Assembly (NCBI GenBank): GCA_002633005.1
Contig: NMRA01000668.1
Span: 1-64,000 of the forward strand
Reading direction: 5' to 3'
Source: Phoronis australis
Lineage: Eukaryota; Animalia; Phoronida
DNA: 64,000 nucleotides
The position numbers and the translations under genes were made by a program. Below, one piece after another: positions 3,327 to 59,159 of the stretch. The notes under the pieces were generated by a model. It was not told the origin of the DNA. It worked only from the letters and a program-made list of their open reading frames with translations, and searched no databases. Within the stretch, counting starts at the first letter, position 1; each line of letters begins with the position of its first letter.

Positions 3327-3570
3327 ATGAAATGAAGAATATTAATCGGTAAATAAAACAACAAGAATGGATCAACTTAAATTTGAAATTTTCGGACGTA
3401 ATAACTTCCTTTATCAACAAAAACAACATGTTGTAAACGGCCCTTGGATAACGTTCCTGTGGCATATTCAAACTTTTTTGTTGATAAAGGAAGTTATTAC
3501 GTCCGAAAATTTCAAATTTCAGTTGATCCATTCTTGTTGCTTTATTTACCGATTTATATTCTTTATTTAT
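3327..3570. repeat. Long inverted repeat (about 95-bp arms, about 50-bp spacer); foldback/MITE-like
   Basis: Arms are near-perfect reverse complements; the ORF track shows the same peptide on both strands. Confidence 0.9.
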
Positions 3571-5939
3571 GTGTACACATGGCTATCAGCCCAAAGTACA
3601 ACAGACAAACAAACAGAATCTTTGGAGTGCTATGACTCTAGTCAGCAATACACAAGCTGTTCCGTTTTTTAGATGCGTAGTATGCATATTTCACAACTGA
3701 GGTACATAACAGTCTATGAAATTTAAACAAAGAGGGACTTGTCCAGGGGCTCTCACTTAGAAACTTAGCTCTGATTTCGGAAAAAGCGTCGCAAACTAAC
3801 AAAAATGATATCCATCCGCGACACAATTCCTCGAGCATAATGTACAGACTCTGTCTTGATATATCACATTTACGTGGCTACCAGTTTCTACTGCCAGTCT
3901 GTGGTTTGCACGTCAAAAACGAGTAAAACTTTGCACGAACACTCTTGGAAGATTATCACTTTCTAAATAATTTTCATATTCAAATACAACCTTAAGATTT
4001 TTGTAATTAATTGGAATCAACATCGGACTGTCACCTTTGCAAAGCACAGTCCTGAACACGTTGAGAGAAAATATTTACAAATTACTCTTGACATACGACT
4101 CCTTGGTTTACCCAAACATCATAGAAACCATACATTGACAATAAATTGCAGACTGAGCTTGCCCAATTATACATACGTCTACCATTTTCATCTAGTCTGT
4201 ACAACATGTTGTAAGCGGCCCTTGGATAACGTTCCTGTGGCATATTCAAAATTCAGCATTAATACAGCTAACAAAGTATCTCGTAAACATGTGTAGGGTA
4301 CGTCATTTCAGGTCATTAATGAAGCACAACTTTTATTGCTTGGCGAAACCTGCATGGGAGCATAGTTCTAGGTGATTTGTTATGCCCCGTTGGCCATCAT
4401 CTAGGCTGATTGTTTGCTCCCAGAAGTGATTCGTCACATGATTTTATGCCATTATAACAATGGAAAAGCATCCAGCGACTAGTGAATAACTTTCCTTTAA
4501 CAAAATGGCTACGAAAGTGACACTACTGGTAAGGCCTAAGAGCATAGCCTTAGACGGTGACACAGTTTAGTGTCAACTATATGTATACATTGGCTGGGCG
4601 AATGACATGCTTCTGCATATCATTGCGTTGTTGTTCGCGTCCATAAAATCACAGAAAAGATAAAGCATCGTCTCGAGATTCAACAAAATTGTAGATTGAA
4701 CCACAATAAACAAGAAACGTGGCCACCTACTGCAGAGTATTAATTAATTACGAACGCATAGTGTCTGTTTGATTAACAATGTCCTTCAAACAAAGCTCTG
4801 ACTTTTACATTGGAAATACTTTGCATAATTGCGACAAAAAGTGGAGGAAATTTCAACAAAAGCAACAGAACAGTATTTTTGATTTTCAAAAACCTTAGCA
4901 AACCTAGAGCGAATTACATTTTGAAAGAACAAATTAAAGGGTTGAATCAGTTAAAATCAAGGCATAATGGCGTATTTACACATTTTTTCTCTACTCAGAA
5001 CTCTCAGGCTATCACAAACTCTTGGATTGCTTTACCAAGTACCACATTTGTCATGATTCTATGCCAAGTTGGCTCAGGGGCAAGTGTTAGTCAAACATTG
5101 GTGCACTTCACATCTCAATCTTGATCATAGGCCATCAGCTAACAGTTGAGTTCCGGATAAACTGAATCTCTGTTCATTGCTGTAACTGTTATGAAATCGT
5201 TACCATTCACAAAGGTATTTCTCTGCAGTGTGGGCTTTTTAGCTTGTTATTAGTCTAGGTAATGTAATGTAAAGCAACTTAGCAGGGGGGCAGCTCAAAT
5301 TTATTATGACTTAGAGATTTCTGCCAGTAGGGCAACGCAATGTTAGTCGAGACCACTGAAATACAGATTGAATATTTCTCATTTGTTGTTGCTTTTTATG
5401 CGAAATTCATAAACCTTCCCACGCTCACCTGATCTTGAATTGTTGCCGATGAATTCAAAATTTTAATAAACAAACCGAAACAATACATGGTGAACAGTTT
5501 AACATTTGTTTAAGAGGCAGAAAACCATAATGAATACGTAACCAAATTTAGTCTGGTTTTGCGTTCCAGGCCTCTTTAAAGGCCTATTTGGATATTGGTC
5601 TTTAGCCACCAAGAGAGGGCACTGCAGCTCTAAGAAATGATGTGTCATTACATACGCTTAAAAGATTTTTTGTTGACAGCATAGAGTTTACATCCTTCAA
5701 ATTGACTTCTCGTGCACGTAAACACTCGTTTGTTCGACTACTTACCGCGGCAGCCACGTGATATTCGAAAATGAAATCAGGCGCTTCGTGAAATAGTGTA
5801 ATAAAGGTGCTATAGGTTGCCGAAACTTAGTAGTTACAGTGTAAGCTTGATCTTTGATTTTTGTATTTGGAAATGCACCACGCAGCTCTTCACCCTAATC
5901 TCCGTCTCCCTAACCGCCTCATTTCGCAACAACCAAAAT

Positions 5940-38900: not shown

Positions 38901-40848
38901 TAATGCTACAGTCCAGTGCTGTCTGAAGTCAGTTTCTTGAGAATTTCAATAAATGGAGACTGATCACGTCACAGGTGACTGGTAGCTTGTGCCCTTTGTT
39001 GAACTAGGGGAAAATGACTTTGTGCAGAATACCCGGAGTATGCCCAATGGACTTTCTTTGACTTTTTTGTTTACGCAGTCATAACTTCCACATTACCGCT
39101 CTTCGTAAAATAAAGATTTATTCTTGAATAGTTAGCCAAGTGGTTGCAAGACATTCTCCATAGTGTGTTATAGTGGTCTTGCAACTGTGACACTGCATTT
39201 TTCATACTCTTCACTCAGAACTGAATCTTGTAAAGGCTCTGAATAAAGTATGGTTCTGTCACGCTGAAAATTTTGATGCACATGGCTGGGCTTTTCAAAA
39301 TTCATGGGGGTAATAAAACAACTGTCTTCTCAGCCAGGACCATAAAACTTTGGTTAAACATACACAGGCCCATTGGGTAGTTATATGACTAAAACCAGGG
39401 TTAACAAATAACTGCTTTCACTGACCTTGTAATAAACACAGTCAATTTCCAAAGGCCTTAACTGTGTGAACAATACCAATGATTTACATGGGTATGCACA
39501 ATTTAAAGCCACAATGGGGAGTAGTTACCCTGCCACGCCCAAAATGGTAGGGTTTGAAACTAAGTTTGAACAGAATAAACATTGAGGGCAGTTGTTAAGA
39601 TCTAATCTTGGCCATTTCATCAAGATATTACAAGGGGCTCTGACACTGAGAACAGGTTTGGCTTGACAAGGCTGTAAAACACTACTCATGCATTAAGGAG
39701 CTGCTTCCATTGCGGTGTTTACTCTTAATGATGTTTGAAAACGCTCTAAATGTTTTTTTTACGACTGAGTACTCTGTGCTATACTTTGTGTTAAACTTTT
39801 AGTTTCTGATGCTTTGCATGTGGGTTTCGGGTTCTTAAGCGTTAGCAATGCACAGGTCTGTGTTCCGTAGACTCACGAAACTCTGTCTTATAAAATCAAG
39901 GAGCTTACAAGTGAACACTTGAAGTGATTGGTCGGTGAGGTTGGAATGTTGCATTATGGGATAGAATTCACAGTTTCTGTTTCAACAAGCAGACATTTCT
40001 GACTGCGATTGCTTTTTGAGTACATGATTTTACGGAGCATCCCCAGTTTATAGGTGCATGGTAGATTCTAGCTTGGTGCCATATGAATTTATACCAAGCA
40101 GAGGTGATGGTTTGAAAGATTTGCATGCTACTGTACACTTATGGTAGTTTTAAAAATGAATTGTACAAAACTTCGATAGAAAAATGGTGAACTTCTTGCT
40201 AGGAATTGGTGAGGTTTTACTAATAGATATTTGTCAGTTTCTCCGAGTGAATTTGCTCCCTTGTCCACTAGGGGGGCAGTTGGTTGTGCTCTGATTCCAG
40301 GTGGTCTGTTGTTAGTAAATGGTCTTTCATTCCTAAAACATTTTCTTTGTGTATGATATGATGGTACGTACTGTAAAATCACACGGACGTATCAAATTTT
40401 ATTACTTCAATATGGTAAACAGTGCCAAATAACACTCATCATTTAAAATTACTGTGCCATAGCTGCCTCCAGAAAATGAATGTTTTTGGAAGTTTTTGAG
40501 GAATTAAAAAAATACTTTGATGTGAAATTGGTCAGATATTATTGTATGTTAAAACTGAGATTTGTAAAAGTGTGCCTTTATCAGCCAAAACAGTTCTGAT
40601 CATATTCTTTGCTGATTGTTTTAGTTTCTTGTACAGTGTTTTGTGTTTGTATTGTTGCAGCTCCGCCCCCACCACCACCTCCCACTGCAGGTCCTCCACC
40701 TCCCCCCGCTCCGGGGAGTGCTACAGAGTCTAGTCGGCCCTCAAGCTCGTCAGCTGAGCGTGGGGCACTGCTGAGCTCAATCACAGGTTTCAGCAAAAAT
40801 GCCCTGAAGAAGGCAGAGACTGTTGACAAAAGTGCACCGAGAATTTGA
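17830..40848 (+). CDS. PXK: PX domain-containing protein kinase-like protein (PXK/MONaKA, Slob family); whole spliced gene, 14 coding exons, 1698 nt, 565 aa
   Basis: Hand-joined exons 17830-17931, 19768-19962, 21371-21467, 21808-21959, 22097-22171, 23065-23169, 23424-23568, 27298-27422, 29168-29285, 30413-30491, 32012-32138, 33195-33278, 33569-33674, 40661-40848. All are GT-AG and phase-consistent. Motifs: KVLLDDTVPL, PX (KRYSDF, LPPKK), pseudokinase (GHL..NI, DIEN), WH2 (RGALLSSI..F.K..LKK). Confidence 0.95.
19768..19962 (+). CDS. PXK: PXK exon 2, PX domain core (EYTIRVQRG...KRYSDF...LPPKKVFGNFDREFVAERKQALQ)
   Basis: ttctag acceptor, gtaac donor; PX-domain motifs. Confidence 0.95.
21371..21467 (+). 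CDS. PXK: PXK exon 3 (AFINGILNNLMLASSIYTKRFLD...)
   Basis: ttttag/gtatc boundaries; last PX helix with KRFLD. Confidence 0.9.
21808..21959 (+). CDS. PXK: PXK exon 4 (IALQQVSMFFRSETQWEVIESLPDIGWRLRKSYFLV...VLSW)
   Basis: ttttcag/gtaggt boundaries; conserved DIGWRLRK motif. Confidence 0.95.
22097..22171 (+). CDS. PXK: PXK exon 5 (SDFGPDKFIPDKDLSAIMKLIPSFQ)
   Basis: caacag/gtaagt boundaries; GPDK motif. Confidence 0.92.
23065..23169 (+). CDS. PXK: PXK exon 6 (HDHLYP...GSLRDYINK)
   Basis: tgtag/gtgagt boundaries; kinase subdomain V-like GSLRD. Confidence 0.9.
23424..23568 (+). CDS. PXK: PXK exon 7 (AKPRNYYLKKYG...QVLETLKYLHEKGIPY)
   Basis: gttag/gtacgt boundaries; kinase subdomain VIa. Confidence 0.9.
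23801..24332 (-). mobile_element. Haplotype-specific insertion, possibly an LTR-like sequence
   Basis: Absent from the duplicate copy, which diverges after ttactaacgt. Minus-strand TATA-like (about 24220) and AATAAA (about 23852) motifs; gtaaca near the end; no TSD found. Confidence 0.35.
24334..25110 (+). repeat. Second near-identical copy of PXK exons 6 (24366-24470) and 7 (24733-24877) with introns; probable uncollapsed haplotype
   Basis: Starts right after the N at 24333 and repeats about 23033-23800 with scattered SNPs (exon 7 G>S and A>V plus synonymous changes). Including both pairs would add 250 nt and frameshift. Confidence 0.85.
24906..26571 (+). mobile_element. Decayed Helentron-associated element (HINE/DINE-1-like) with internal tandem repeats
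   Basis: 5' atgcgtccaca..tgtggctgcat hairpin; 3' tgtgggtgcat plus caacgc..gcattg stem and ctcttgt; internal units of about 130-160 bp. Confidence 0.7.
27134..27268 (+). repeat. 16-bp minisatellite (gacatcttgggttcaY) x about 8
   Basis: Directly visible tandem array ending about 30 nt before the PXK exon 8 acceptor. Confidence 0.95.
27298..27422 (+). CDS. PXK: PXK exon 8 (GHLSAANIMLEGRVVKLMDIENTLLGLPPFYR...)
   Basis: ttgcag acceptor; degenerate catalytic loop (GHL for HRD) and DIE for DFG, as in the PXK pseudokinase. Confidence 0.93.
27610..28870. mobile_element. AT-rich MITE interrupted by the HINE; related inverted copies at about 37800-37975 and 38480-38665
   Basis: Arms aaaactagtaaaactaaaatg / cattttagttttactagtttt flank the HINE. 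Confidence 0.6.
27726..28813 (+). mobile_element. Complete Helentron-associated element (HINE/DINE-1-like)
   Basis: T-run then subTIR atgcgcccaca with inverted partner tgtggacgcat; (GTCC)n microsatellite; about 150-bp tandem units; 3' subTIR tgtgggcgcat plus caacgc-tcc-gcgttg stem-loop. Confidence 0.85.
28961..29064 (+). mobile_element. tRNA-derived SINE-like repeat
   Basis: ggtaagagca, ctaga-ccggcaa-tctag arm, B box ggttcgattccc, T-run; same family as 49251-49695. Confidence 0.7.
29168..29285 (+). CDS. PXK: PXK exon 9 (TTEAIDVYAFGHLLYEMAFG...)
   Basis: ttccag/gtaagt boundaries; kinase subdomain IX DVYAFG. Confidence 0.94.
29500..30083 (+). mobile_element. 5'-truncated CR1/L2-group LINE, ORF2 C-terminus and start of the 3' UTR
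   Basis: ITKKLSKKIGVLKRL...YHSIIQPHIDYCLPVWG...IQNRAARAI...GLAPAYL...YSTR...WNS...FK, with one internal stop; absent from the duplicate haplotype copy. Confidence 0.88.
30085..30395 (+). repeat. Partial second copy of PXK exon 9 (30085-30172) and following intron; probable uncollapsed haplotype
   Basis: Begins right after the N at 30084; near-identical to about 29198-29500; lacks the exon 5' end and acceptor. Confidence 0.85.
30413..30491 (+). CDS. PXK: PXK exon 10 (SVLESILTLEACKNGLPSVTDLLTHP)
   Basis: ttacag/gtaagt boundaries; conserved EACKNG motif. Confidence 0.93.
31009..31060 (+). CDS. Candidate alternative PXK exon (FFKYFTQTVHVVDHILY)
   Basis: Strong acceptor ttccttttattttttccgcag, gtatgt donor; phase 2 start completes HP-FF after exon 10. 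Confidence 0.35.
32012..32138 (+). CDS. PXK: PXK exon 11 (LFSEVILPPSTKPVVKIPSKLKDVIRLAKDATERRLNEEQKI)
   Basis: ttttag/gtacgt boundaries; resembles the post-kinase helical region of PXK. Confidence 0.92.
32452..32990 (+). mobile_element. Partial, decayed HINE-family copy
   Basis: atgcgtcca start; aaatttggca and gccccctagt units like 27726-28813. Confidence 0.6.
33195..33278 (+). CDS. PXK: PXK exon 12 (INKIRRRSKAQSYHMSEEEKKKRRKSKK)
   Basis: ttttag/gtacgc boundaries; conserved basic segment. Confidence 0.92.
33569..33674 (+). CDS. PXK: PXK exon 13, Ser/Thr/Pro-rich linker
   Basis: ttgtag (NAGNAG tagAAG) acceptor, gtaagt donor; phase 0 to 1 fits both neighbours. Confidence 0.85.
35000..35385. 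repeat. (CA)n / (CACG)n compound microsatellite
   Basis: Directly visible. Confidence 0.95.
38279..38418. mobile_element. End of a GC-rich palindromic MITE, haplotype-specific
   Basis: Repeated ccgacc/ggtcgg words; ends ...gtgtgctg|tacatctgg where the other copy reads caaa|tacatctgg. Confidence 0.6.
38419..38969 (+). repeat. Near-identical duplicate of 37738-38277; probable uncollapsed haplotype
   Basis: Direct repeat across the N at 38278 with scattered SNPs and indels. Confidence 0.85.
40661..40848 (+). CDS. PXK: PXK terminal exon, polyproline plus WH2 actin-binding motif
   Basis: ttgcag acceptor; PPPPPPP...RGALLSSITGFSKNALKKAETVDKSAPRI*. Confidence 0.95.
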
Positions 40849-45349: not shown

Positions 45350-45477
45350 TTAACAGCACCAGGGTTTCATGAAGAGAGTTTGTACTTCTTCAAGAGTTTT
45401 GCCTTTTGTTTCTGGCAAAATCCACGTGAAGATGATCAGTCCTAGCAATGCCAAGCCAGTGTAGAGATAGAAGGCAC
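45350..45477 (-). CDS. SLC2A13: SLC2A13 terminal exon (GAFYLY...[21 protein letters not shown])
   Basis: ttctag acceptor; PETKG motif; TAA stop. Confidence 0.93.
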
Positions 45478-48400
45478 CTAGAAAAGTAATTCCAAATAGT
45501 TGGAAATCATTACTCAGTACTACTACAGACCAGTGGAAATAAATCCAGATATAATGAATAGATGCATTGCTGCTCATATAAAATCCAGGCCAGTGTAAAT
45601 GCAAACGCAAGACAATTACACTAAGTGATGTATAAAGTTACCCCAAAACTCAAACTTTGTCCTTGTACACCACTTCTTCCATTGACACAGTCACCCACTG
45701 TGGCACCTTCCATAACACAGAGCTAAAATACCCGCACAAGAAATCGCACTTGAGAAATCAAAATATGAACTCAAGTTGGCAGCAGGCCTCTTCCAATACC
45801 TCCAGAAGTTCCCCAGGGGCTACAGACCCTTCAAAATCAATTCTGTATGAAATTTGAAGAGTTCCATTGCCACACAAGAAATTCACCCAATTTGAGTGGA
45901 GTCTGAAAATAACTAGAAGACAGTGCACAATGCAGTTTGTAAAGAGACAGTAAAAAGTGTGTCCTGCAGCCTGTGTCACTGTAGGATATAGGCTTTGCTG
46001 AAAATGATAGAAGTACGGAGTACCCCTGATATGCTGTTGGGAGTTGTTCTTATGAAACTTGGCAAATTTCTTACTTTGCGATAAAACCCCGGGCTTCATT
46101 TTACTAAAGGCAACAGCCACCTCCTATATATGATTCCATTGACGAAGCCTACCCATGGATTGGCCTTGATCAGCACATGAATACGTACCGTATCGTGTCA
46201 GAGCCTCTGTCAACGTGAGAAATGTCATAGAGATGAGGAGGTTGAACAGCCAATTAGAGCATGTTGCCATGGCAGCACCAGTACTACGAGCCCACAGGGG
46301 GTAGATCTCTGAGTTGATTGTCCATGGCATAGGGCCAACACCTGAACGTTTTAAACAGTTGATGGTTATACTCACCACATAGTAATTCACACAATATATC
46401 ATAATGATTGACAACATTAAAAGTCATTCAGTGTCTTCTATTATATTCAGTGTCTTCTATTAACTGCTGGATTATGACAAGGTCCTTCCCCTACACTGTG
46501 GTGGGGGGCACTACCTTCACTGATAAAAAGGATGCCGTCGGTCCCTGTAAGGTACTAGTTTGTACCAAAAACCTTGCACTAAAGCTGGGTTGGGCAAGTA
46601 AGCTTCAGGAACTTAAAATAAGTGGTCCGCTACCTTGGAAATATTATGCTACATATTCCTTTTTCAGGTGGCATGTTTACCAGACCTAAGATTGTACATG
46701 GATGTGCACAATCTCTCCAGACTTAAGATTGTTCTCGATATTCATTTTTCGGCAATAGTCGGATATAACGTTACCATATTTTAAGAACCAGTTTGAGGCC
46801 CATTATTCAGTGAAGAAAACTGATTCTCTATACTCGGGCATGTTATACCCGACCATTACCCATTTTTTCACTTATTATAAAGGCTTGTACCTGGAGCGAA
46901 GAAAGCTAAATAGATCATCAGGCCTGCAATTGCCATCCATGAGTATGGTGTTGGACAGTAGTCGTAGGCCCAGGCAATGTCCTGTGGTAGATCAGTGCTG
47001 TTGCACATGCCTGAGAGTGATGAATAGGGATCAGATGGTCTGGTTGGGAGACACAAGAGGTCGCTGATGTTGCCGCCACCAAAGTCGGTGTAACAAAAGC
47101 CACAGTCAACCAAGCTGATACATTGGTCACATGACCTGAGGATATAACCATGACATGTTACATCTTGATGACAAAAAGTTATTTATTGTCACGAATTAAG
47201 AATTAAACCCATTGGGAAAGTGTTTTAAGCATTTTTGCTGCATTGTTTCAAGCATGAAATTTTCAATCAACAAAATAAAACAAAAAGTTAAATCTAAATT
47301 GAATAGTGCCAACACAGAACAACAGACCGTCCATGTCTATCAAGTGCATTAAATTTACACAAACAATCCACTACTCTAATTTTTACATTTTCTTGACTTG
47401 TGACGAGGAAAGATGTCCATTTTTTCAAATTAGTCAGATGGTAATGAAACTCACGTGGTGTTTCCGCAATCCGATGACATACCACCCAGAGGTGGCGTCA
47501 AGTGAGGAGAGTTGAATGCTGACAGATGGAAGCCGATTCCAAGAAACCCAAGGCCTAACACTGTGCCAGCCAAACTACCAAGGAATAGGGGGCGCCGGCC
47601 AATCTTTTCAACCAGGGCTAGACCAACAAATGTAAACAAGAAGTTGACAGATGATGTCACTGCTGCTAGCCAGATGGCACTGCTCTTATCACGAATTCCT
47701 GACATGGTAATGATAGTGGCACTGTAGTACCTGCAAACAGATAAAAGCATGAATTGAGACATCCAGTTGAGATATCAAAATACAGGAAAAATTAAGTCAA
47801 ATACTGGAATTTGCTTGCTTGAGTTAGAGATGTTGTGCCTGTCTCTCATCGACTTGATGACGTGGCTACTCCGTGCACTCTTGAAGAGCTTCTTTGACAC
47901 CCCTTCTGAACCAATCCTCCTCACGGTATAGGATACTGACACCATCAATTATATCAAAATCATGTCCCGTGGCACATTAGTGGTTAAAAATAGCTACGAC
48001 ATTTGTCCCCCGTAACACGGGCGACGAAGTTGTGACATAGGCATTTTTAAGAACTAGTTTCTTCTAAATAGCTGTCTTGAGCACTGGGACTTTGTGCACT
48101 GAACACCAGAAAGATAGTAACACTACTAGCCAAGCTGAAGTACATGAGACACAGAAGCAACGTTGTTAACTCAAGAAAGCAAATTCCAGGATTTGACTTG
48201 ATGTATTTTTTTCTGTATTTTGCAAATAGATAAAATGTAAAACACTTGACACTCAATTCAAGAAAAAAACATAAAAATCTCATTTTCCAAATGAGTTCAA
48301 TTGACAATTCATGACAGCTGGGGTCAAGGATTCAGTGCAAACCGTGAGAGAAAGTGAAATCATCAAAATTTGATAATTGTTCTTTTCTTTGATAACAACA

Positions 48401-51400
48401 AACGTCCGAGATTGAGATTTTCTATAATAGAATTCAATGTCTCAAAGTGGCACTAAATCCGTGTTTTCTGCCAAAAATGGGATTTGATTTAGGTCATTTA
48501 TCATTTAAAAATTGGTCTTATCTTGTTCCTTATTCAGTTTAAAAGTGACCTTGAGGCTCAGGTAGAACCGACAACTTGCTATTACAATTCCAGGTCACAT
48601 GACATGAAATTTAAAGTAAACAAAAATTTTATGCTAGTTGGTTTGAAGCCCTGAAATCACTTGAATTTTAAAGGTAAGTTGCCTAAATCAAAACTTGTTT
48701 TCTATAAAAAACAAGTTCTGACTTAGGCAACTTACTGTTGAATTTGAGGTTATTTCAGGGCTTGGATGCACTGCAGCTTTAGATCTTGGCCCAAGAATCA
48801 CTGAGTATACAAAAAATTGTTGCATCACCTAGTCACCAGTCAGCCACAATTCTGCTTTAAAGTGAAATTTGTAACCTTCAACAGACTTTTAACAATCCAG
48901 CAGTGGTCACAAAATGAAGCATCACTAGTTGAACCATCAAAAGACAACTTGAAGGTAATAAAACGAAACAACTTCCAACGAAAAACTGATAGATGAAAAG
49001 TTAAATACGGTACGCATAGTAACAACTGCAAGTAGTTGTTTGCCAAACAGCACTATGTAATACGTACATGACAGTGTTAATGCCGGACAACTGTTGGAAC
49101 ATTTGTAGAGCACACCCAAGAATAACAGCTCGCCGCACGTGTGGAGTGGTGAGTATACGGATAATTACGGTACCAGAAGACCCTGGCAGATATAAAATAG
49201 AACAGCATGAAAAATACTACAAAAATGCTATATCATTTTAATATAAAATAAACACATAAAAATCAGGAAACCCAACTAGGAACCAAATCACAGGTCTCTT
49301 TATTACTGGTCTAGTGCTCTTACCCCTGAGTTAATGAAGACGCGATATCTGTGAAATTACAGTTTGTACCCACCTGTTATTTCATTTATCTCATGAGTGT
49401 CCTTTTGCCTTTTTCACACGAGATTTGGACAATTAAGTTACAAACATGTGTTAATTAGATGAAGAAAATATAGACGCTTATGTTAACTAGAGTAGATTGA
49501 TTAATAATAAAATTGTCCGAATCGTATGTGAAAAAAGAGAAATGTCACTCATAGGAAAGATGACATAACAGTTAGCTGCAAACAATAATTGTGCAGATTT
49601 CAAGTCCTCAGTAGTTCAGTGGTAAGAGCACTACACTGGCAATCTAGAGAACTGTGATTCGATTCCCAGTTGGGGTTCCTGACTTTTCTGTGTTTACTTG
49701 ACCTCCTTATTAGTTAAACAGAATCCAGAATGCAGACAACACAGTTTTGGCACGGACTCAAAACAAAAACCTATTTGCTGAAAACATCAAGAAAATCCAT
49801 TGCTGAGCTCCAAAGACACACTCTTAACTTTGCCATGAGGGGGCACAGCAGTCGACAGGTCTGTCCAAAGTCGTGATCATATGTTGGATTCGTAGCAAAA
49901 TGCAATTTCACAAAATTGCCACTGTGGTGCCACAATAGACAGACTCATCCAAACAATCAACGTCTGCTGTGGTCTTCTCAACAACAATACATGGAGACCA
50001 GTGTGGCATACAGAGAGGGAGATGCTAAAAAATTGAAAACAGGAATAGCCACTGGGTGGTGCAAAATATTTCGCTTAAAAATCACAAGGAGTTATCGCAA
50101 TTTTAAACAAAACCTACACTCCAAATTTCTTGAAAATCCAACTAGGATTTCTGAAGATACAGAGGCAAACGAAAAAGATGAAACTGCCATGAAGGGTCAC
50201 AGCAGTAGTCAGGGCGGTCCGAAATTCATTGTCTTTTGTCATCAGTTTCATTGGAACACATCTGCCAATCATATCACGATTTTGCAACGGATGTGGAAGA
50301 TACAGCAGTGGACGCCAGATGACCGGAACCCCACACCGATACGACAGCAATGAGTACCCACATTATGTATAAAAACAAAGTAGTAAGTTTAAACTTGATG
50401 CTAACATTGCCTTACTTTTAACATAACAGTAGAGTTCTGAAAACTGTCATTAAAGGAGAATGCAACCATTTATGTTATATTTAGTAAATATGCAGGTACC
50501 TGGTTACCATGGAGGCACAATTTTCTCGTTTCAACTATTGCTCCCCTGACGAGTATTTACTATGCAAGCAACAACAAAACCTCACATGAACACAGAGCAA
50601 AACGCCCGCATCTTGGATCTACATAATTTCATTTTCATCTACAGAGCAAACACAATATCCTATTGACTTTTGAATGCAGTCTGTGTCGCACGTTGTGTTT
50701 GCTAAATGGAAATGAACACAGAACCAAGATGGGGGCTCTTTGTTGGTCTGTGTACATTACTGTGCATTGTTCAAAGGATAGCAAATAAACGGCATGGGAA
50801 AAAATGAACAGGGAAAAATGTCTCTACAAGATAACATTAAATTATTACCAATAATGAAAGATGTTTACTCATTAGTATACATGAACAATGACTGCTTTAC
50901 CCTCAAAATCCTCTGTACCACATCTGAGACCACAGGTTTTAACAGCCTAGTTAATGGTGATTGAATATATTTATTCAAAGCATGCATCATCAATGGCTTT
51001 TCTAGGGGTACCTGGATGTCATATTGAAACGATAGTTCATGTCAGATAAGACATGAGTACACTAAAATAAAACAACTGGGTTGTTTTTATGAGTGTTAAC
51101 ATAATTGTTAAGTACACGCATCATCATTCATTTGGTAAAATGCATAATTTTGACACGGTACTCGATTTCCCTGAACGACTTAAAAACCCAATTGATGGTT
51201 ACTTTTTTGGCTAAAAGAACAAATTAACCTTCGAAGGTTACTTGATTACATAACTATTCATCTCGTGGCAGAGGTATTTAACTTTCTGATTTACAAAAAA
51301 GGGGACATTTTACCAAAATTCATGTGGAGTCGTTAAGCTTATAAGCAGTCATAGTTTACATGAATGCTGCAAAAGGCCTAATTTAAAAACACTGAAACTG

Positions 51401-54400
51401 ATTACAGCAACAAGAGTTCATATTAGTACTAACACCACAACAAATGTTACAACCTATTTCAATAAACTGACATGTAAAAGCAGTGTACATTGTCCAATAA
51501 CTTGCTGCATCAATTGCCCTAACTACAGTCTTAACTTTGCAATAAACATTTTGACTTTGCAATAATAGACCAGGCAGTAACAACACAGGAGCTTAAAATT
51601 CATGAGGCTTTACATATCAGTTGGTGCAAGCCCAATCTCAATAGGAAACTGACACACCACAGGTTGTCATTGTTGGTCTAGTTCATTGTCACTCCCTGTA
51701 ACTGACTGTATCTGTGCTTCATTACTTGTTGCTGGGCCTAGCTAGGTGGCCACTGTATTATGACTTCTGAGGGTGGTGTTTAATAAATGACACCGAAACA
51801 TGTCAAGTTTTAAAACCGTAGTTATTTTCTTGAATTTATGCTGCTACTTGCTATCATGGAAAACATTACTTCGATTTTGATCTTTGATAACATGCCCCAG
51901 GTGAATTATCAGACAAAATGAACTCTAGATGTGTTAACAGTGACCAGTAAATTTGAGGAATGTGCAAAGATACGTACCAGCCTCTCGCTTTGCCTGTTCA
52001 TCCTCTTCACAACTGGCTTTTATTTGTTCCAATTCATTCTCCTTATAACTTGCACCTCGAATGTCTAGAAGAACTTTTTTGGCCTTTGAAAAATTTCCTA
52101 AAACGACAAGGCGCGCAATGCTAGTTGGAAACATAAGCCTACCAGATCCACTTGGAATTTTTGCAAGAAATCATTAAATTCAACATTTAAAAAGTAAGAA
52201 GAGTATCTGTCAGTGCATAGCTGCACTTAATGTAGAATTTCTTTGTCATAATTATTTTGAAGCAGCCGTCCAAAATTTGTTAACACACAGCAACGTTCAC
52301 GTTTCATAAATTTTCAACGAAATTTGTTTGATATCCGTTTGCAGCCCAACAATAAAGCAGACGACCAAAAATTATATTGTCATGGATACGTATTAGGTTC
52401 CTATTTAAAGTAGAGATGGAAGCGGTATGCATAACTTTTTAACATAATGGTAACACCAACACTTATTTTCTGGTCAGTGACTTCTGACCTCAGGTTTGGC
52501 AAAATCAGTTTTCATTTGGCGACCTGGGATTTTCCACCAACTCACATTTGGTACGTTGGTATTAAGCTAAGTGTTGAGCACTGACTTGTGAACATTTTTG
52601 TGTATTCAACACATTTTGTCCATATGGCTATGCTGCAAGTCTACCATTGGTTTTGTGAACCAGTTGACTAGCTCTAATACCTTTTTGAACAAGCCACCTT
52701 GGACTTTCTGGTAAATATAAAAATCCAACAAACTGGATAACAGAGGGCAGTGCAGCTAATCCCAGCATGAACCTGTAAAACAGGAAATTGCAACAATCCA
52801 CAGCTGTCTCGTAACTAAAGTCATGGCAACTAAAAGTTACTTTTAATTAATTCCACTAAATAAACTAAACGGTGTCACATAAAAATTCTTACAAGTTTTG
52901 GTCAAGTCAAAAACTGAGAGCATTTCTTCAAATACATTTTCCTATTTTAAGCAAACAGTAATGCTCATCCATTTTCATCATCTTATAAAGTTTTCATCTT
53001 AAACAAAGATAAAATAACACTATGAAACTTTTTAAAATCAGCGCATATGTAAATGAAGACATTGTATTGGTCGACCAATACAATGTCTTTGTTTATGAAA
53101 TACTATGTAATGATTTTGAAGTTCTGACTCATATTTTGGCCAAAAACAAATGTAACTACTCTGAAAGCATTCAAACCATTTCTTACAAACAAGTCAATTA
53201 AGTCCTCATGGGGTTAAAACATTCTACTTCCCCAAATCTTTTGCAGTCAGACACACAGTGTTATCTTTAAAGCCTTGTTAACGTTGACCGCAATTAAAGT
53301 GGGAATTTGTTAAAAAAGTTCACGACCAAGTTCTAGAGGCATCACACTTTCACAAAATCTTAATTTTTTGAGAGTTCAAATTTACAATTCTGTAGACGTT
53401 TGGCCAAAGGCAAACTGAGGAGGCCATGTTTTGGAAAGTCCAAGACGAGCAAATACTAAATAGGAGTTTCTTCAACACAACAAAGTGGGCATTCAACAGT
53501 TTACACAGGTCTAGAGAAGCTGTTTGCGTCTCCTTGGATAGATTCTTTGAGTACCAGTTTCACTACTGGGACTTGTTCAACTTGACCATGGCGCAATTAC
53601 GACCTTAAGTTTAATAATTAAAAATAAAGCAGCCAGTGGTCAGCAATTGATCTCCACTTAATTCACACAAATATCAGCCAAAATTCTCATTTTTCCATTT
53701 TTCAAACACTGATTACTCGACTGCAAGTAATGGAAAATAAAACAAAATCCCTTTTTTGACAATAAAACCTACAAACTACAAACCATGCTAATAACATAAC
53801 TGTCATGTACACTAAAATTTTCTTAATCCTTTTTGTGGAAAAATTAAACAAAAATTATATCATTTGTCGCCCATATTGTAAGCTACATATACATGTACGG
53901 TAAGTAAAGAATAATTTTCAAAACACTGAAACAAGCAAGCTGGAAAGCAGAATACCAAATAAGCCTGCCCCGTGTCTGATAGCCACTTTCCAGAAATGAA
54001 ACAAGTCAACAGCTTACACTATTCACCTGTATCCTCGCCACATTCAGTTTGACAGGAAGCAAGGAGTACGCAAGGAATGGAATGAAAGACATAAGACAGA
54101 ATGTGAACGGCTTGAAGAACACACAGAAGCTAAACAGAGAGCTGAGTCAGACCCATTTACACGACCCATTTACACGACGTTGTTGGCCAGCATGCAGGTC
54201 TACACAGTCATTTCCATCACATAATGACAAGTGACTACTTTTTACTAGATGGGTGTGTTTGTACTAGTGCTAGTTCAAACATAAACTTGTCACCCGACAA
54301 TGGAGGCAAGCCTATCCCATCACTGGAGAAGTAAAGTAGAAAAAAGTCAATGAGGATGATTTGAATAATGTATAAGGAAAGAGCATAGTTTGAGATGTTA

Positions 54401-57400
54401 CCACCGAGTGCACAAACATGAAATTGGTGAATATTGAGACCTTGTTTATTTTAATTTTACAGCTGATCATCTCCAACATGAACGGATCGTTTGTTGACAT
54501 CATTTCTTGCCTCTGAAGAAAGACAGACGGACAACAGACAAGCAAGCAAAGTTGTCAGAAGTAAAGGCATCAACTGTGATAAAAGACATCAATTTGAAAG
54601 ACAAGTTAGTGTTAACACATTGGCAGATTTAGAGGGTGCTCAAGGGACATGACCTCCCCCTATGCACACGACCAAAACATCAGCATGACACATTAGGGCT
54701 TGGTTGCCCCCCCTTATGGTATCCTAAATCCACCAGTGAAACACTCAGTCAGCGAGTGGTGCATACCTCCAACCGTAGTCTGTGTAATAACTAAACACTC
54801 CGTTTAGTATAGAGGTGACCAGTATGCCAGTAGTAATTGAGATTTGGAAAAAATGCATGATGGCACCTCGTTGTCCACTAGGGGCCGCCTCCGCCATGTA
54901 AATGGGAGTCGTGACCGACGATAGTCCTAGGCAATAATGGAAATGCACAGGATATAATGACAATATGAATGTGTGCCATATTTAGTGACTAAAGGCTGTG
55001 TCCGGGTTCGAGGACAGCAAAACACATTTTCAAGCATTTCATATTATTGCCACGACACCTAGTGTCATCCATGTAAAACACGTGTGACGTACAAGCAACT
55101 GCGCTTATTACAACCAGTGGCATAGCTACGATCATCACCATCTGGGATGGGTGGTGATGGTGCAATCAATCCCCATATTGCCCAAGTCGCTGGCCATCCG
55201 ATGTTGAAGCCACCATCTCTCAGGAACCCTTTAGTCATGCCACTGGCTCCGCGATAAAGAAGAGAGGAAGGTAGGTCATGCAGCACTCAGAGAACGGTAC
55301 AGAGAATAATCTAAAACAGAAGACAGTGGCACAGCCGGAGAAAGCAGCAATGGTCATTAGTGAGTTTTCAAAAAGTGATGAATTTCGTAAAAAAAAGCCT
55401 GGCTTCATTGAAAATATGGCAGAAAGAAAACTGAGTGAAAAGAATAGTGTAAAAAGAATTATAGTTGATACCAGTTTATTTGTTTCCCCTAAAATTTGGG
55501 CAGAGGTGTAGCTCTAAGTTGTCATAGGCAGGCGACCATGAGGTGACTTGGCAAAGTCATTACATTGCCTTAAAAAGCTTGCTTGTATAATGGTGTGCTT
55601 TTTGGAACCAGTCAGAGTTGTTGGCTGAAACTGAAGCCGGTGGCTACTTTTTTAAGTAGTATTGCACAGATTGCAAAAATAAGTTGGGTGCAGGCCAGAA
55701 CCAACTAGACACTTTTTTCTTTGGCCTAACACTAATTTCACTTGAAGTTTCACCACCTTCAACCAGAGGAAATTCCATTACCTTTTTATAAACTGCTATA
55801 CAGAAGAGCACAACATAGCACGACGCATGTCCTAAGAGCAGTACAGTACATACGACATATAAATTGCTGGTGCAAAAAACATATTGTACAATGAAAATCT
55901 TTAATTCGTTCAAAAATGTTTGGAATGAGAGATGTGTCCCGGTATGGCAATTGTCGCAGTGCAGTAATATAAATTTTAACCTTAAACCAAAACACGTTAC
56001 AGGTGCACTTTTAACACTGTCAGCTGTACTATTCATGTACAAACAAATCTACTACTACTAACAAAAAATTTATTAAACGGCATTCATCGATATATCATAA
56101 GTACCAATAATACTCCTACGAAGTGCAATGAGTCGCGTGCAAGCATGAAGACCGGCAAACAGAGTGAAAATGTTACAGTAGTCACAGCCAGAATCATTCA
56201 TGCTGATATCAAGTGTAGAAGAAACTAAAAAGTGTCACACATTACAAAGGCACGGGTCAAGATAAGTGCACAAGTCAAGATAAGTGCACAGGTCAAGATA
56301 ACTGCACAAGGCAACATGCACATAGGGTTGCTTAGGGTGGCAACAAACAAGCATTCCATCAAAGACAACGGACCTTTTCTTTAGACCACTTGCCACTACA
56401 AAATTGGTTCCTTACTCAGATGGGAAGTGATTTCTGGATAACTACAAATAACTAGCCATTTGTTATTCCTCGGGACCATGCTTGATGAATAAAATGACAT
56501 GCCATGACAAACAAACTACATGTAATAGAGCTGGGTCTCAAAGAATAACAAACTTCATTCTTTTGAAACTCTGATATCGGCATCAAATTCAACTTTTTAA
56601 GCATCAATTTCACAACTGCAAATGGCCTAAATCAAATTTTTTGCGACGGAAGGTGGAAGATTATAGTTGCTTACAGTAACTGTTTGCTGACTCTTCAGGC
56701 TTAACACAGTAAAACTACCCTAAGCATAATCTGGTCAGTCTATCAACAATCTATGGCTTTTTATATTGGGTGCTTAACGAGCCATAATGAGCACACATAA
56801 TGGATCTCGTTATAATGCTACTGATACTGGTAGAACACAAGTTCAGACGAGATCAGAAGTGAAAAGACAATGTTTTAGAAATGAAACTCAGTACAATAGT
56901 TGTGAAAAAAGTATTTAGTGGTTCAAAAACAGTCTCCATATGATCTTGGCAAGTCCAGGAAGTGTAGATTTAGTAAAACAATGGACAATGCTTATCATGC
57001 AGTGAAAACATTTTTTACCGAGAGTAAGTTTCAAAAAAGTAATGTTTTGTTAGTCAGTTTTTTGAAATGCAGCCAAAATGGCCTAGATGACTAAGCACAC
57101 GAAATAAAGGATTATTATCTGGCTTCACTTTGACAATAACAGTTGTTGTATTTTATCCCAATTCATAGCAAAGCAATGAAAACGAAATGTCAAACTTAGG
57201 CAATCAGTTCCACAGAAGTGTGATGCTTACATTGAAAACTACAACTGTGACATATTAAACTAATCATAAGGAAAAGGAAAGTTAACATAGTGGTGACATG
57301 CATTATTACCTCCACCCATTTTTTTGATCGTAGCTAAAGCCTCCATCTACAAGACAAGCGACAAATTGTCCGCCTGTAATAAATATGTTGTTAAGCGTAA

Positions 57401-59159
57401 CAAGGCGACCACGGGCACGAACTGGTGCACTTTCGGCAATGTACATAGGAGTTGTCATGGAAGCAAGACCTGAAATGACAAGCCATCCAAAATATGCAGT
57501 AAACACAGCTGCAGTCACATCAAGCTACTAGAAACATGTTACGCAGTTTGTTCAGTATTAAGGTAGTAAATCGGATGATGAATTGAATAAGGGTCGATTT
57601 CACATCACATAGCACCTTGGAGCCCTCAATCCCGTCATTGCTGTGTTTGTCAAAGGCTGCGATTTTGCATCACTTGAATCAATTAAGTGTAAGAAAATGC
57701 AAATCAAGTGGATGGGAAAATTGGGAGGGTCCCCTTGGACAAAATTTTGTTAATAGCAAAAAAATCACCAGTTACTAAATTATTTATCAATCAACTTCCT
57801 GAAGTGGATTTGTCCATTTTTTCCAAAGCATTGTGCATCACTTCATAGATACTTGAAATGGACACTAACAAATGCTGAGAAGGCGAGTCCATCGGACTCG
57901 GGACTTTGAACGAGTAAGGCGTGCATTGATTTGCCAACCAGCAGGGCATTCCTCTCATATTAGCACACTGCTGTCTCACACTGTTGAGGAGAAAGGTGCC
58001 GATATTCGGCCTCAAAATCGAGGGATTGAGGGCCATGGAAAGTTGTCGCACGTTCAACTTAATAGCTCAAATCACTAACAAGACAGTGATCACCGCCATT
58101 TTTACACTGTGCATACCAGGGGATATAACGGCATACTACCTACAGCGTGCAGTGTTAAAAATAATGAGTTACCGATTTAGGGAGCTGAGCGAGGGACAGC
58201 TCAAAGAAGAAGTTTGATACCGGGAGTATTTCTTCAAGTTGGAAGGAATTAAATACACCGACAGCCTTCTAAGGTGTCCCCTCTATGCTCAAAAGGTATT
58301 TATAACAACACGACTTTGATGATTTAATCAGTGTGAGGCATAATTCGCTGAAAAGCTTCAGCTGACTAGTGATTTAATGTTATTCTTTGTAAATGATGTA
58401 TACTGTTATTGTTATATGTGACATGTAATTATCATACTAGAGCAAAATATAAAAAAAAAACAAAAGTGTCTAGCGCATGAACCTCCTACAAGAGCGCCAC
58501 TATCTCTACCTGGCCAGTTAGACACAGTGATCACTGTCTACTAGTATGTCTTGACCATACATACCTATACCAACTCCTACAATGAAGCGCCCCAACAATA
58601 ACATAGTTTTATTCATAGCCAGGCCTAGCACCAGTGCTCCAGCAGTGAAAATAAAACTAGCTATGAGAGTTGTGGGTTTCCTTCCAAGCCAATCATTCAG
58701 GTAACCACCAACAATAGCAAAAAAAGCTGCAGCTCCAATGGTGACAGAGACAATCAACTCCTGCCAAAGAGAGTTTAAATGAAACTGGTCTCGTATTATA
58801 ATCATTGCACCAGACACAACACCCGTGTCATACCCGAACAGGAAACCTCCGATGGCGGAGAAAAAAGTCAGTAAGTAAATAAAGTACGATGACCCCCGAC
58901 CAGGTTTTGCAGCGCCGTCACCGTTGACGTTTCTGTTTTGATGCAGGTTATCGTCATCACCCCTTTCGTTGTGGCGCACACTTTCATCCTGTGAGGCAAC
59001 GTAAGATTTAAGCGGCTCCTGTAGCTGCCCCTTATCTCCGGAAAAAAGCAATGGAGTTTCGTCAGAATGCTTGGTCGCAATTCCAGTGTCCGACTCCATA
59101 TCACTGTAGCTGGAGCTCGACTCAATTCGCACAAGAGCGAAGTTGTTTTCCATCCGCAT
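45350..59159 (-). CDS. SLC2A13: Proton myo-inositol cotransporter (HMIT/GLUT13, MFS sugar porter); whole spliced gene, 1884 nt, 627 aa with either exon 2
   Basis: Exons 59159-58565, 57469-57310 (or 54926-54767), 52772-52681, 52097-51978, 49182-49068, 47730-47455, 47135-46891, 46341-46189, 45477-45350, all GT-AG and in phase. Motifs [36 protein letters not shown], Cys-rich CGFC loop, [20 protein letters not shown]. Confidence 0.95.
46189..46341 (-). CDS. SLC2A13: SLC2A13 exon 8 ([22 protein letters not shown]...)
   Basis: gttcag/gtacgt boundaries; conserved sugar-porter motif. Confidence 0.95.
46891..47135 (-). CDS. SLC2A13: SLC2A13 exon 7, Cys-rich exofacial loop plus TM10
   Basis: cctcag/gtacaa boundaries; SCDQC..CGFCY...[12 protein letters not shown]. 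Confidence 0.94.
47455..47730 (-). CDS. SLC2A13: SLC2A13 exon 6 (YYSATII...VEKIGRRPL...)
   Basis: ttgcag/gtgagt boundaries; TM8-TM9 with GRR. Confidence 0.95.
47865..48030 (-). mobile_element. Penelope-like retroelement fragment, C-terminus of the GIY-YIG endonuclease
   Basis: Translates [36 protein letters not shown], resembling the recalled PLE motif H...GH.F...V.IL.RE..WF.RGVKEAI. Confidence 0.7.
48646..48762. repeat. Palindromic MITE-like hairpin (about 55-bp arms)
   Basis: aagccctgaaat..gtaagttgcctaa..aacttgtttt / aaaacaagtt..ttaggcaacttac..atttcagggctt. Confidence 0.8.
49068..49182 (-). CDS. SLC2A13: SLC2A13 exon 5 (...[23 protein letters not shown])
   Basis: tgccag/gtacgt boundaries; TM7 QQLSGIN motif. 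Confidence 0.95.
49251..49695. mobile_element. Inverted pair of tRNA-like repeats forming a foldback element
   Basis: Arms about 49251-49435 and 49508-49695 are diverged reverse complements; each ends in a tRNA-like module with A box, B box and T-run pointing outward. Confidence 0.75.
49740..50375 (-). mobile_element. Decayed HINE-family copy in reverse orientation
   Basis: Reverse complement resembles the head and tandem units of 27726-28813. Confidence 0.55.
51763..51808 (+). ncRNA. Minimal type I hammerhead-ribozyme-like motif (Penelope pLTR type) with one core mismatch
   Basis: ACTT-CTGAGGG-T-GGTGTT..GACACC-GAAAC-AT-GTC-AAGT: stems I and II pair, palindromic ACATGT in stem III, core A9 is G. 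Confidence 0.55.
51978..52097 (-). CDS. SLC2A13: SLC2A13 exon 4, central cytoplasmic loop ([15 protein letters not shown]...)
   Basis: ttttag/gtacgt boundaries; AKKVL..IRG loop motif. Confidence 0.9.
52681..52772 (-). CDS. SLC2A13: SLC2A13 exon 3 ([30 protein letters not shown])
   Basis: ttacag/gtatta boundaries; PESPR motif. Confidence 0.94.
53056..53089. repeat. Perfect 34-bp palindrome
   Basis: aagacattgtattggtc|gaccaatacaatgtctt. Confidence 0.95.
54618..54738. mobile_element. Short MITE (cagtggcggatttag-type TIRs)
   Basis: cattggcagatttag ... ctaaatccaccagtg. Confidence 0.6.
54767..54926 (-). CDS. SLC2A13: SLC2A13 exon 2b, diverged paralogue of exon 2a ([33 protein letters not shown]...GWR)
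   Basis: 160 nt, gcctag/gtatgc boundaries, same phases as 2a, no stop or indel; 25/54 aa identical to 2a. Confidence 0.85.
55114..55246. mobile_element. Short MITE (cagtggcgtagc-type TIRs)
   Basis: ccagtggcatagcta ... tagtcatgccactgg. Confidence 0.6.
57310..57469 (-). CDS. SLC2A13: SLC2A13 exon 2a, canonical HMIT type ([33 protein letters not shown]...GWR)
   Basis: 160 nt, tttcag/gtaata boundaries, phase 1 to 2; ITGGQ signature. Confidence 0.94.
58565..59159 (-). CDS. SLC2A13: SLC2A13 exon 1 (N-tail with DETPLL dileucine motif, TM1-TM4)
   Basis: [20 protein letters not shown]...GRFIVGVGI; GTATG donor. The true start could be the 2nd or 3rd ATG. Confidence 0.95.

What the first reader, a model, noticed from the sequence alone, without database searches (positions are those of the whole stretch)
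54767..57469. Duplicated exon 2 in SLC2A13/HMIT: candidate mutually exclusive splice switch of the substrate pocket (inositol type vs hexose type)
Seen in sequence: two 160-nt exons (57310-57469 and 54767-54926) have the same phases, intact GT-AG sites and no stops or indels, yet share only 25/54 aa. All other exons are single-copy, and including both copies frameshifts. This is not a haplotype artefact, since divergence is high and no N join is nearby. Established: the exon encodes TM4-TM5 of the sugar-porter fold, GLUT1 Q161 and I168 in TM5 line the sugar site, and inositol transporters carry ITGGQ. Exon 2a has N and Q at those two positions (NNIFITGGQ). Exon 2b has Q and I ([10 protein letters not shown]), as in GLUT1/GalP/STP hexose porters. 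Inference: one gene makes two transporters with different substrate preference. I know of no such arrangement in vertebrate SLC2A13 but cannot check the literature.
Basis: partly seen in the sequence, partly recalled or inferred. Interest (0 to 1): 0.85.

Follow-up and report, generated by a model that had tools for sequence, protein, structure and literature searches.

The report
Swappable sugar-pocket exon in inositol transporter
An invertebrate inositol-transporter gene carries two intact copies of the exon that lines its sugar pocket, each seen spliced in RNA at one end, and it likely uses one or the other to make either an inositol carrier or a predicted glucose-type carrier, a swap that also appears in gene models of a ribbon worm, a lamp shell and a sea spider.

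Summary
Confirmed. A lophotrochozoan-type HMIT/SLC2A13 gene has two 160-nt copies of exon 2 (end of TM4 plus TM5). Either gives a 625-aa protein; both or neither frameshift. RNA reads join exon 1 to 2a (16 reads, 3 of 3 runs) and 2b to exon 3 (9 reads, 2 of 3 runs); the joins 1-2b, 2a-3 and 2a-2b were not listed, so exclusivity here is inferred. Annotated isoform pairs of Tubulanus, Lingula and Pycnogonum differ only in this segment, with the same x..Gln to Gln..Ile/Leu swap; Daphnia, termite and thrips models also carry two versions, and molluscs have the Gln..Ile pocket as a separate gene. The two positions are STP10 Q177/I184 and XylE Q168/Q175; 2b raises the match to the STP10 glucose site from 9 to 11 of 13 residues. 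A hexose switch is likely but untested: XylE Q175I alone does not give glucose transport. One origin versus convergence is unresolved. Ten literature searches found no description; this scan noted a like exon pair earlier in another genome (e1-7596782).

The parts
58565..59153 (-). Coding exon 1 (589 nt): N-terminal tail, TM1-TM3 and start of TM4; carries D109 and R189 (STP10 D42/R142 proton pair)
   Evidence: PF00083; RNA depth and join to 2a
57310..57469 (-). Exon 2a (160 nt): end of TM4, loop, TM5; canonical HMIT type, N224 and Q231
   Evidence: join from exon 1 in 3, 3 and 10 reads
54767..54926 (-). Exon 2b (160 nt): diverged copy, Q224 and I231 as in STP10, STP6 and GlcP
   Evidence: join to exon 3 in 0, 2 and 7 reads, 6 loose ends in X3
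54165..54179 (-). Intronic stretch that can pair over 15 bp with nt 21-35 of exon 2b; weak candidate for a splicing control element
   Evidence: 15 of 300 shuffles reach the same helix energy; picked after the fact
52681..52772 (-). Exon 3 (92 nt): TM6, PESPRW motif
   Evidence: joins 2b-3 and 3-4
51978..52097 (-). Exon 4 (120 nt): central cytoplasmic helices
   Evidence: join 3-4 in 13, 12, 18 reads
49068..49182 (-). Exon 5 (115 nt): TM7 with Q350, Q351, N356, M359
   Evidence: loose ends of 35 reads at the exon 4 end match it
47455..47730 (-). Exon 6 (276 nt): TM8-TM9
   Evidence: not covered by the RNA lays
46891..47135 (-). Exon 7 (245 nt): Cys-rich outer loop typical of HMIT and TM10
   Evidence: 8 Cys between residues 447 and 511, the first from exon 6; for the family feature
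46189..46341 (-). Exon 8 (153 nt): end of TM10, TM11
45350..45477 (-). Exon 9 (128 nt coding incl. stop): TM12 and short tail

Best explanation
The gene is an HMIT/SLC2A13-type sugar porter with two intact copies of exon 2, which are likely spliced one or the other so that one gene makes two 625-residue transporters, an inositol-type form (2a) and a form predicted to accept glucose-like hexoses (2b). Shown: both copies are intact, under purifying selection and each is spliced in frame at one end. Shown by alignment: the swap moves the TM5 pocket glutamine from codon 34 (2a) to codon 27 (2b) and puts isoleucine at 34. Inferred: in 2a Gln231 hydrogen-bonds a ring hydroxyl of inositol where a hexose has its C6 arm; in 2b Gln224 would bind the C1 hydroxyl and ring oxygen and Ile231 would give the hydrophobic face, as in STP10. 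Inferred: mRNAs with both or neither exon are removed by nonsense-mediated decay, which enforces exclusivity. The proton pair D109/R189 is shared, so both forms are predicted to be H+ symporters.
For: Gene model and frames. Selection pattern; of 3 variants read in RNA inside 2b two are silent and one is Ile>Val, both in 2a are silent. RNA joins 1-2a 3/3/10 and 2b-3 0/2/7 against 3-4 13/12/18; in the deepest run 10+7 is close to 18. Isoform pairs differing only in this segment, always x..Q against Q..I/L: Tubulanus XP_074645505/507, Lingula XP_013395117/118, Pycnogonum CAM1300376/375. Among 267 aligned proteins every one with I/L/M/V at codon 34 has Gln at 27, and only 5 of 197 with Gln at 34 do. 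Codons 27/34 are STP10 177/184, XylE 168/175 and GLUT1 161/168; STP10 Q177 is the only polar N-domain contact to glucose and I184 part of the hydrophobic face (PMC6345825); XylE Q175 bonds the C6-OH of glucose, is Ile in GLUTs, and Q175I/L297F transports glucose (PMC13095657, PMC8784342). Isoform B matches 11 of 13 STP10 glucose-site residues, isoform A 9. The mollusc gene that has the B pocket permanently has also changed the XylE-297 site from Met to Ile (47 of 55 B-type rows; one clade, so one event).
Against: No read was listed for 1-2b, 2a-3 or 2a-2b, so use of the 2b acceptor and the 2a donor, and exclusivity itself, are not shown; X1 has no 2b-3 read. All three RNA runs come from one study and under a fifth of each was read. 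In X3 the depth over 2b (about 15) is not far above the surrounding introns (1-20). XylE Q175I alone did not transport glucose; the shared TM7b residue here is Met (as in STP10), not the Phe of GLUT1-4. 29 residues differ between the isoforms, so kinetics, gating or sorting could be what changes. The relatives are annotation models whose DNA and read support I could not see. No assay of any B-type HMIT was found.
Confidence: 0.58

Rival explanations
1. The exons are mutually exclusive, but both isoforms remain inositol/polyol transporters; 2b changes affinity, stereoisomer range, pH dependence or localisation rather than substrate class.
For: The other 572 residues, including the Cys-rich loop and all C-domain pocket residues, are shared. 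A single Q>I change at this site is not enough in XylE. Known transporter exon pairs such as SLC12A1 exon 4 and SLC7A2 mostly tune affinity (recalled). Inositol is close to glucose in shape (PMC7462842).
Against: The swap recreates both TM5 glucose contacts together and does so in several phyla; the C-domain pocket is already the same as in glucose porters, so TM5 is where A differs from them.
Confidence: 0.27
2. Exon 2b works mainly as a regulatory (poison) exon: it is added after 2a, shifts the frame and sends the mRNA to decay; isoform B protein is rare or absent.
For: The only joins listed, 1-2a and 2b-3, are also those of a 1-2a-2b-3 message; double inclusion stops at nt 798, 1112 nt before the last junction.
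Against: No 2a-2b join was listed either. A poison exon needs no conserved protein: 2b shows codon-position bias, an intact sugar-porter motif and matching isoforms in other phyla.
Confidence: 0.07
3. 2b is used from an internal promoter or as part of an unspliced 5' end in the 2a-2b intron, giving a transporter that lacks TM1-TM4 or a non-coding RNA.
For: No spliced read into the 2b acceptor was listed; X3 has a depth peak of 15-20 at 55110-55313 just upstream of 2b.
Against: No pile-up of read starts was reported; 2b keeps a pyrimidine-rich acceptor and the exact phase of 2a; a porter without TM1-4 would not fold; relatives are annotated full length.
Confidence: 0.05
4. 2b is a decaying duplicate or an assembly artefact.
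For: 2b is the longer branch (0.85 against 0.19) and has no close relative in the collections (best identity 54%).
Against: Neutral decay to this divergence kept frame, splice sites and codon bias in 0 of 20000 trials; no flanking similarity and no N nearby; RNA of other individuals covers and splices both copies.
Confidence: 0.03

Closest known systems
HMIT / SLC2A13 / GLUT13 (H+/myo-inositol symporter)
   Same: Best hits are proteins named proton myo-inositol cotransporter; Cys-rich TM9-10 loop, TM1 Asp/TM4 Arg, and in isoform A the ITGGQ motif of human HMIT.
   Different: Second exon-2 copy with Gln..Ile; 0 of 70 named deuterostome cluster representatives have that pocket. The vertebrate gene was not examined as DNA.
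SLC12A1/NKCC2 exon 4 A/B/F, SLC7A2 (CAT-2A/2B), SLC25A3 exon 3A/3B
   Same: Tandem-duplicated homologous exons in solute carriers, listed as such in PMC8373072 (passages), which also argues for SLC12A1 that joint inclusion frameshifts and leads to decay. Such exons are enriched in transporters.
   Different: Other protein families. Their isoforms differ in affinity for the same substrates (recalled, not from a call); here the predicted change is of substrate class, and it recurs across protostome phyla.
Hexose/H+ porters STP10, STP6, GlcP and GLUT1-4
   Same: Exon 2b's best solved matches are STP10, GlcP and STP6; Gln and Ile at the two TM5 pocket sites; the model of the Tubulanus B isoform overlays STP6/STP10/GLUT3 (target TM-score 0.84-0.87).
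   Different: About 25-29% identity overall; the protein body is HMIT. It lacks STP10 L43 (Thr) and T437 (Asn) and the GLUT1-4 Phe at the XylE-297 site.
XylE Q175I/L297F (engineered xylose-to-glucose gain)
   Same: Same TM5 position, same Gln-to-Ile change.
   Different: XylE already has the first Gln (Q168) and needs L297F as well; here the change is natural, by exon choice, and brings the first Gln with it.
Mollusc B-type HMIT paralogue (e.g. Lottia P0227, Magallana cluster P0200)
   Same: Same Gln..Ile pocket on an HMIT body.
   Different: A separate gene clade (support 100), only B-type isoforms in the sets checked, plus Met>Ile in TM7b; uncharacterised and still named inositol cotransporter-like.

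Membership tests
Sugar porter family (PF00083, TIGR00879) | Profile match and 12-helix MFS fold | tested here: met
   Exons 1, 2a, 2b pass the Pfam cut-off on their own; Tubulanus isoforms pass TIGR00879; model of the Tubulanus B isoform pLDDT 85, overlay with STP6/STP10/GLUT3. The window's own spliced protein was not folded.
HMIT/SLC2A13 clade | Placement among animal H+/myo-inositol cotransporters | tested here: met
   Search with exon 1; tree without exon-2 columns puts it among lophotrochozoan HMITs, with weak support for the exact place.
HMIT/SLC2A13 clade | Long outer loop between TM9 and TM10 with conserved cysteines (PMC2890515) | tested here: met
   8 Cys at residues 447-511; feature.
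HMIT/SLC2A13 clade | TM5 motif with Gln at codon 34 (ITGGQ), isoform A | tested here: met
   Q231; human HMIT row P0248 has the same.
HMIT/SLC2A13 clade | TM5 motif with Gln at codon 34 (ITGGQ), isoform B | tested here: not met
   I231 with Q224.
HMIT/SLC2A13 clade | H+-coupled myo-inositol transport | not testable with these tools
   D109 and R189 are present; no assay.
Homologous mutually exclusive exons | Tandem, homologous, same length and phase, each giving a full frame | tested here: met
Homologous mutually exclusive exons | Each exon spliced at both ends to the shared neighbours | tested here: inconclusive
   1-2a and 2b-3 seen; 1-2b and 2a-3 not listed.
Homologous mutually exclusive exons | Never both in one mature mRNA | tested here: inconclusive
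   No 2a-2b join listed, but no join longer than 1994 nt was listed at all; joint inclusion frameshifts.
Homologous mutually exclusive exons | Both forms kept across species | tested here: met
   Annotated pairs in Tubulanus, Lingula, Pycnogonum, Daphnia; orthology of the copies unresolved.
Homologous mutually exclusive exons | Competing docking/selector RNA pairings | tested here: inconclusive
   One 15-bp candidate, 15 of 300 shuffles as strong; no related genome to test conservation.
Hexose porters (STP/GlcP/GLUT1-4) | TM5 Gln and Ile at the glucose site (isoform B) | tested here: met
Hexose porters (STP/GlcP/GLUT1-4) | Descent of the whole protein from a hexose-porter clade | tested here: not met
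   Body is HMIT; isoform B may work like one but is not a member.
Hexose porters (STP/GlcP/GLUT1-4) | Measured hexose transport | not testable with these tools
   No assay available or found.

The most novel reading that the evidence does not exclude
Protostome animals have repeatedly turned their inositol transporter into a hexose/H+ transporter by one TM5 swap (Gln moved two turns, Ile put in its place): as a splice switch in this animal, a nemertean, a brachiopod, a sea spider and a thrips, and as a separate gene in molluscs. A whole class of proteins annotated as inositol cotransporters would then be active sugar importers, switched by exon choice.
Probability: 0.42. Interest if true: 0.85.

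Novelty: new variant of a known kind. Interest (0 to 1): 0.7.

Why it matters
What makes a sugar porter choose inositol over glucose is not settled, and no inositol-transporter structure turned up in the solved-structure searches. Here nature supplies matched pairs that differ in one 53-residue segment on an identical body, in several phyla, so the question can be tested directly. If the switch is real, splicing sets whether a cell imports an osmolyte and signalling precursor or fuel, and many mollusc and other invertebrate genes named inositol cotransporter are misnamed.

Tried and rejected
No whole genome is held for this window, so paralogues and related genomic DNA could not be searched. 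A word-indexed search with the 2b peptide alone found nothing at E <= 0.001; the full-library search gave 79 hits of at most 54% identity, unnamed. The run search listed no RNA holder by index; four runs came by species label; X4 (contigs, RNA status guessed) did not cover either exon. Single-sequence fold of P0004 failed (pLDDT 39.5) and was not used. A single origin of all B exons: the clade of 15 of 16 (95/89) dissolved when pocket columns were dropped (5, 6 and 8 changes), and AU tests rejected none of four species pairs (p 0.085-0.55; one pair already grouped), so neither one origin nor convergence is shown. A third exon copy or a second last exon in the window: none. Minor-spliceosome or steric exclusion: both donors are GTA-type major sites and the intron between the copies is 2383 nt, so neither applies on its face. 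RNA pairing as the exclusion mechanism: weak only. dN/dS as a number (about 0.17) is unreliable because pS is near saturation. The original HMIT paper (PMC125574) is not held.

Full report
1. The observation. On the - strand the window holds a nine-position gene from 59153 to 45350 with two candidates for exon 2: 2a (57469-57310) and 2b (54926-54767). Both are 160 nt, flanked by AG and GT, in the same phase and free of stops. Either gives a 625-aa protein; both together stop after 265 aa, neither after 201 aa. They share 87/160 nt and 23/52 whole codons. Profiles built from homologues and run over all six frames found two copies of exon 2 (E 9e-29 and 4e-17, next hit E 2) and one copy of each other exon. 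The nearest N is at 38278 and the flanks of the two copies are unrelated. Identity by codon position is 28, 40 and 16 of 52 (p = 4e-6 for position 2 against 3); pS is 0.735 and pN 0.368; 0 of 20000 neutral copies simulated to the same divergence kept frame, splice sites and this bias together, 329 kept frame and splice sites. The copy is old and has been kept as protein code.

2. What gene. A search with exon 1 returned 598 proteins, the best 120 listed, most of the named ones called proton myo-inositol cotransporter, led by Lineus and Lingula. A FastTree tree of 54 chosen proteins without the exon-2 columns puts the window's protein among lophotrochozoan HMITs; its exact place is not supported. 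It has the Cys-rich outer loop that marks HMITs (8 Cys; feature from passages of PMC2890515) and the Asp/Arg pair that couples protons in STP10 (PMC6345825 passages). So it is an invertebrate HMIT/SLC2A13.

3. RNA. The run search, made with 2b and its flanks, listed no indexed RNA holder and added four runs by species label: three raw-read RNA runs of one study and one contig set. With 18-19 in 100 of each raw run read, the joins listed were exon 1-2a in 3, 3 and 10 reads, 2b-exon 3 in 0, 2 and 7 reads (8 start places), and 3-4 in 13, 12 and 18 reads, all at the predicted sites. A narrower lay gave loose ends that read into exon 1 at the 2a acceptor (3, 3, 12) and into exon 3 at the 2b donor (6, X3 only), with two rows not shown. 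Against my reading: 1-2b (3638 nt), 2a-3 (4537 nt) and 2a-2b (2383 nt) were not listed in either call. In X3, 10 plus 7 is close to the 18 reads of the next join, as a split between two isoforms would give, but X1 and X2 are too thin. Depth over 2b in X3 (about 15) stands only modestly above nearby introns. Variants read in RNA: two silent and one Ile>Val in 2b, two silent in 2a.

4. Relatives. I looked up 29 different clusters. Three hold an isoform pair whose differences all fall in the exon-2 segment: Tubulanus polymorphus XP_074645505/507 (25 differences), Lingula anatina XP_013395117/118 (28) and Pycnogonum litorale CAM1300376/375 (30). In each, one form has x..Gln and the other Gln..Ile/Leu at exon codons 27 and 34, as here. 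Daphnia carinata and D. pulex have pairs, split over two clusters each, that differ only here too, with a longer Ser..Arg form. Gene models of a termite (Coptotermes P0186) and a thrips (Frankliniella P0268) contain two copies in a row, one of the thrips copies being Gln..Leu. In the other clusters the members I compared showed no swap (for Schistocerca 3 of 6 members, for the oyster cluster 6 of 15 listed). A profile search biased to the B type returned many mollusc proteins with NQLFITIGIL; they form their own gene clade (support 100). Of 267 aligned proteins of 250 aa or more, 197 have Gln at codon 34, 59 have Gln at 27 with I/L/M/V at 34 (four of these are two-domain non-HMIT porters and were dropped, leaving 55), 11 are other or gapped; the proportions reflect the biased search. 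No row has I/L/M/V at 34 without Gln at 27, and 5 of 197 have Gln at both. None of 70 named deuterostome representatives is B type. All these are annotation models; I saw neither their DNA nor their read support.

5. The pocket. Codons 27 and 34 align without gaps to STP10 177/184, XylE 168/175 and GLUT1 161/168 (the GLUT1 letters are recalled). In a model of the Tubulanus B isoform (pLDDT 85, 70-row alignment) the exon spans the second half of helix 180-208 and helix 211-239, that is TM4 and TM5, and the model overlays STP6, STP10 and GLUT3. STP10 Q177 is the single polar contact of the N domain to glucose and I184 belongs to the hydrophobic face (PMC6345825, passages). Of the 13 STP10 site residues named there, isoform A matches 9 and isoform B 11; the two gained are these TM5 residues. 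XylE Q175 bonds the C6-OH of glucose, GLUTs have Ile there, Q175I alone does not transport glucose and Q175I/L297F does (PMC13095657 and PMC8784342, passages). At the XylE-297 site the window's gene has Met, as STP10 does; 47 of 55 B-type rows, the mollusc clade, have Ile, as GlcP does. Human HMIT, which is inositol-specific (PMC7462842, passages), has Thr..Gln.

6. How it likely works. Shown: two selected, spliced copies that swap the TM5 pocket. Inferred: the spliceosome picks one; messages with both or none carry stops more than 900 nt before the last junction and would be removed by nonsense-mediated decay, the logic argued for SLC12A1 (PMC8373072, passages). A 15-bp pairing between 2b and the downstream intron could damp 2b use but is weak (15 of 300 shuffles). 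Inferred: A carries inositol with H+, B carries glucose-like hexoses with H+. I put alternative one-or-other use at about 0.88 and, given that, a shift toward hexoses at about 0.65.

7. Origin. With all 52 columns, 15 of 16 B exons from five phyla or classes group together (95/89, 57 rows). Without codons 27 and 34, or more pocket columns, the group breaks into 5 to 8 changes; the sea spider pair and the thrips copy tend to join their own relatives, while the window's 2b stays with Tubulanus B (82-92, both long branches) (Frankliniella copy 1 left out as a long branch). AU tests on 31 rows reject no species pair. One old duplication and repeated duplication with convergence both remain open; the second looks somewhat more likely across phyla.

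8. What is known. Homologous mutually exclusive exons are a known kind, enriched in transporters (passages). Ten searches of the paper library were made; five addressed novelty: SLC2A13 + mutually exclusive + exon (2 unrelated papers), two four-term searches on duplicated exons in transporters (0 papers), proton myo-inositol cotransporter with splicing terms (none of 30 listed held the name) and SLC2A13/HMIT with mollusc, Daphnia and splice terms (none of 25 listed held either name); I saw only listings for these. The library lacks most subscription journals, and supplementary exon tables were not searched, so a listing in an exon catalogue is not excluded. The isoforms sit in RefSeq unremarked. 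This scan noted an exon pair of the same kind in another genome (e1-7596782); I had reached my reading before seeing it and confirmed only its termite example.

9. Verdict. Real, selected and transcribed; a new variant of a known kind. The breadth across protostomes and the repeated Gln..Ile pocket make it more than a local oddity, and it offers matched pairs for a direct test of inositol against hexose choice. Interest 0.7.

Noticed in passing
window 17800-40900, + strand: A PXK-like gene (PX domain at 19768-20019, WH2 motif at 40600-40845; kinase-like pieces between, name recalled) ends tail to tail with the transporter gene.
   Followed up: partly
window 55110-55313: RNA depth peak (15-20 in X3, same strand as the gene) inside the 2a-2b intron, as high as exon 2b, with no join or start pile-up listed. 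Unexplained.
   Followed up: no
window 52773-58564: Introns around the two exon copies carry more sense-strand reads in X3 (mostly 3-17) than the intron between exons 3 and 4 (1-2), as if they were spliced late.
   Followed up: no
window 54152-54179 and 53050-53095: A 13-nt tandem repeat whose unit can pair with the 5' part of exon 2b, and a 23-bp hairpin with no loop spacer near exon 3.
   Followed up: partly
proteins P0001/P0125 (Lineus) and P0012/P0140-P0143 (Branchiostoma): HMIT isoforms with two homologous versions of the last exon (TM12 and tail); the window has only one.
   Followed up: partly
proteins P0110, P0116, P0127-P0129, P0134, P0135 (Daphnia): The alternative exon-2 segment has Ser..Arg at the pocket sites and a 46-47 residue insertion, a third pocket type kept in six Daphnia species names.
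   Followed up: no
proteins P0006, P0010, P0023, P0024, P0046, P0122: A lophotrochozoan HMIT paralogue with yet another TM5 (NIAMVAxGQ); the Lingula gene with the exon pair belongs to it, whereas the Tubulanus gene with the pair does not.
   Followed up: partly
proteins P0069, P0070, P0075, P0099, P0104: Pipefish and seahorse HMIT-like proteins share an altered TM5 (ITVLITAGQ).
   Followed up: no
unnamed proteins P0365, P0331, P0343, P0319, P0327, P0328: Further HMIT-like sequences with a Gln..Ile/Leu pocket outside the mollusc type; P0365 has a loop like the nematode row P0003.
   Followed up: no
window 37830-38048 and 38512-38739; 3328-3669 and 3967-4293: Near-identical repeated stretches; the first pair flanks the N at 38278 and may be an assembly join.
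   Followed up: no
window 29659-30033, + strand: Open frame that looks like the end of a LINE-type reverse transcriptase gene (resemblance recalled, not searched) inside an intron of the neighbouring gene.
   Followed up: no
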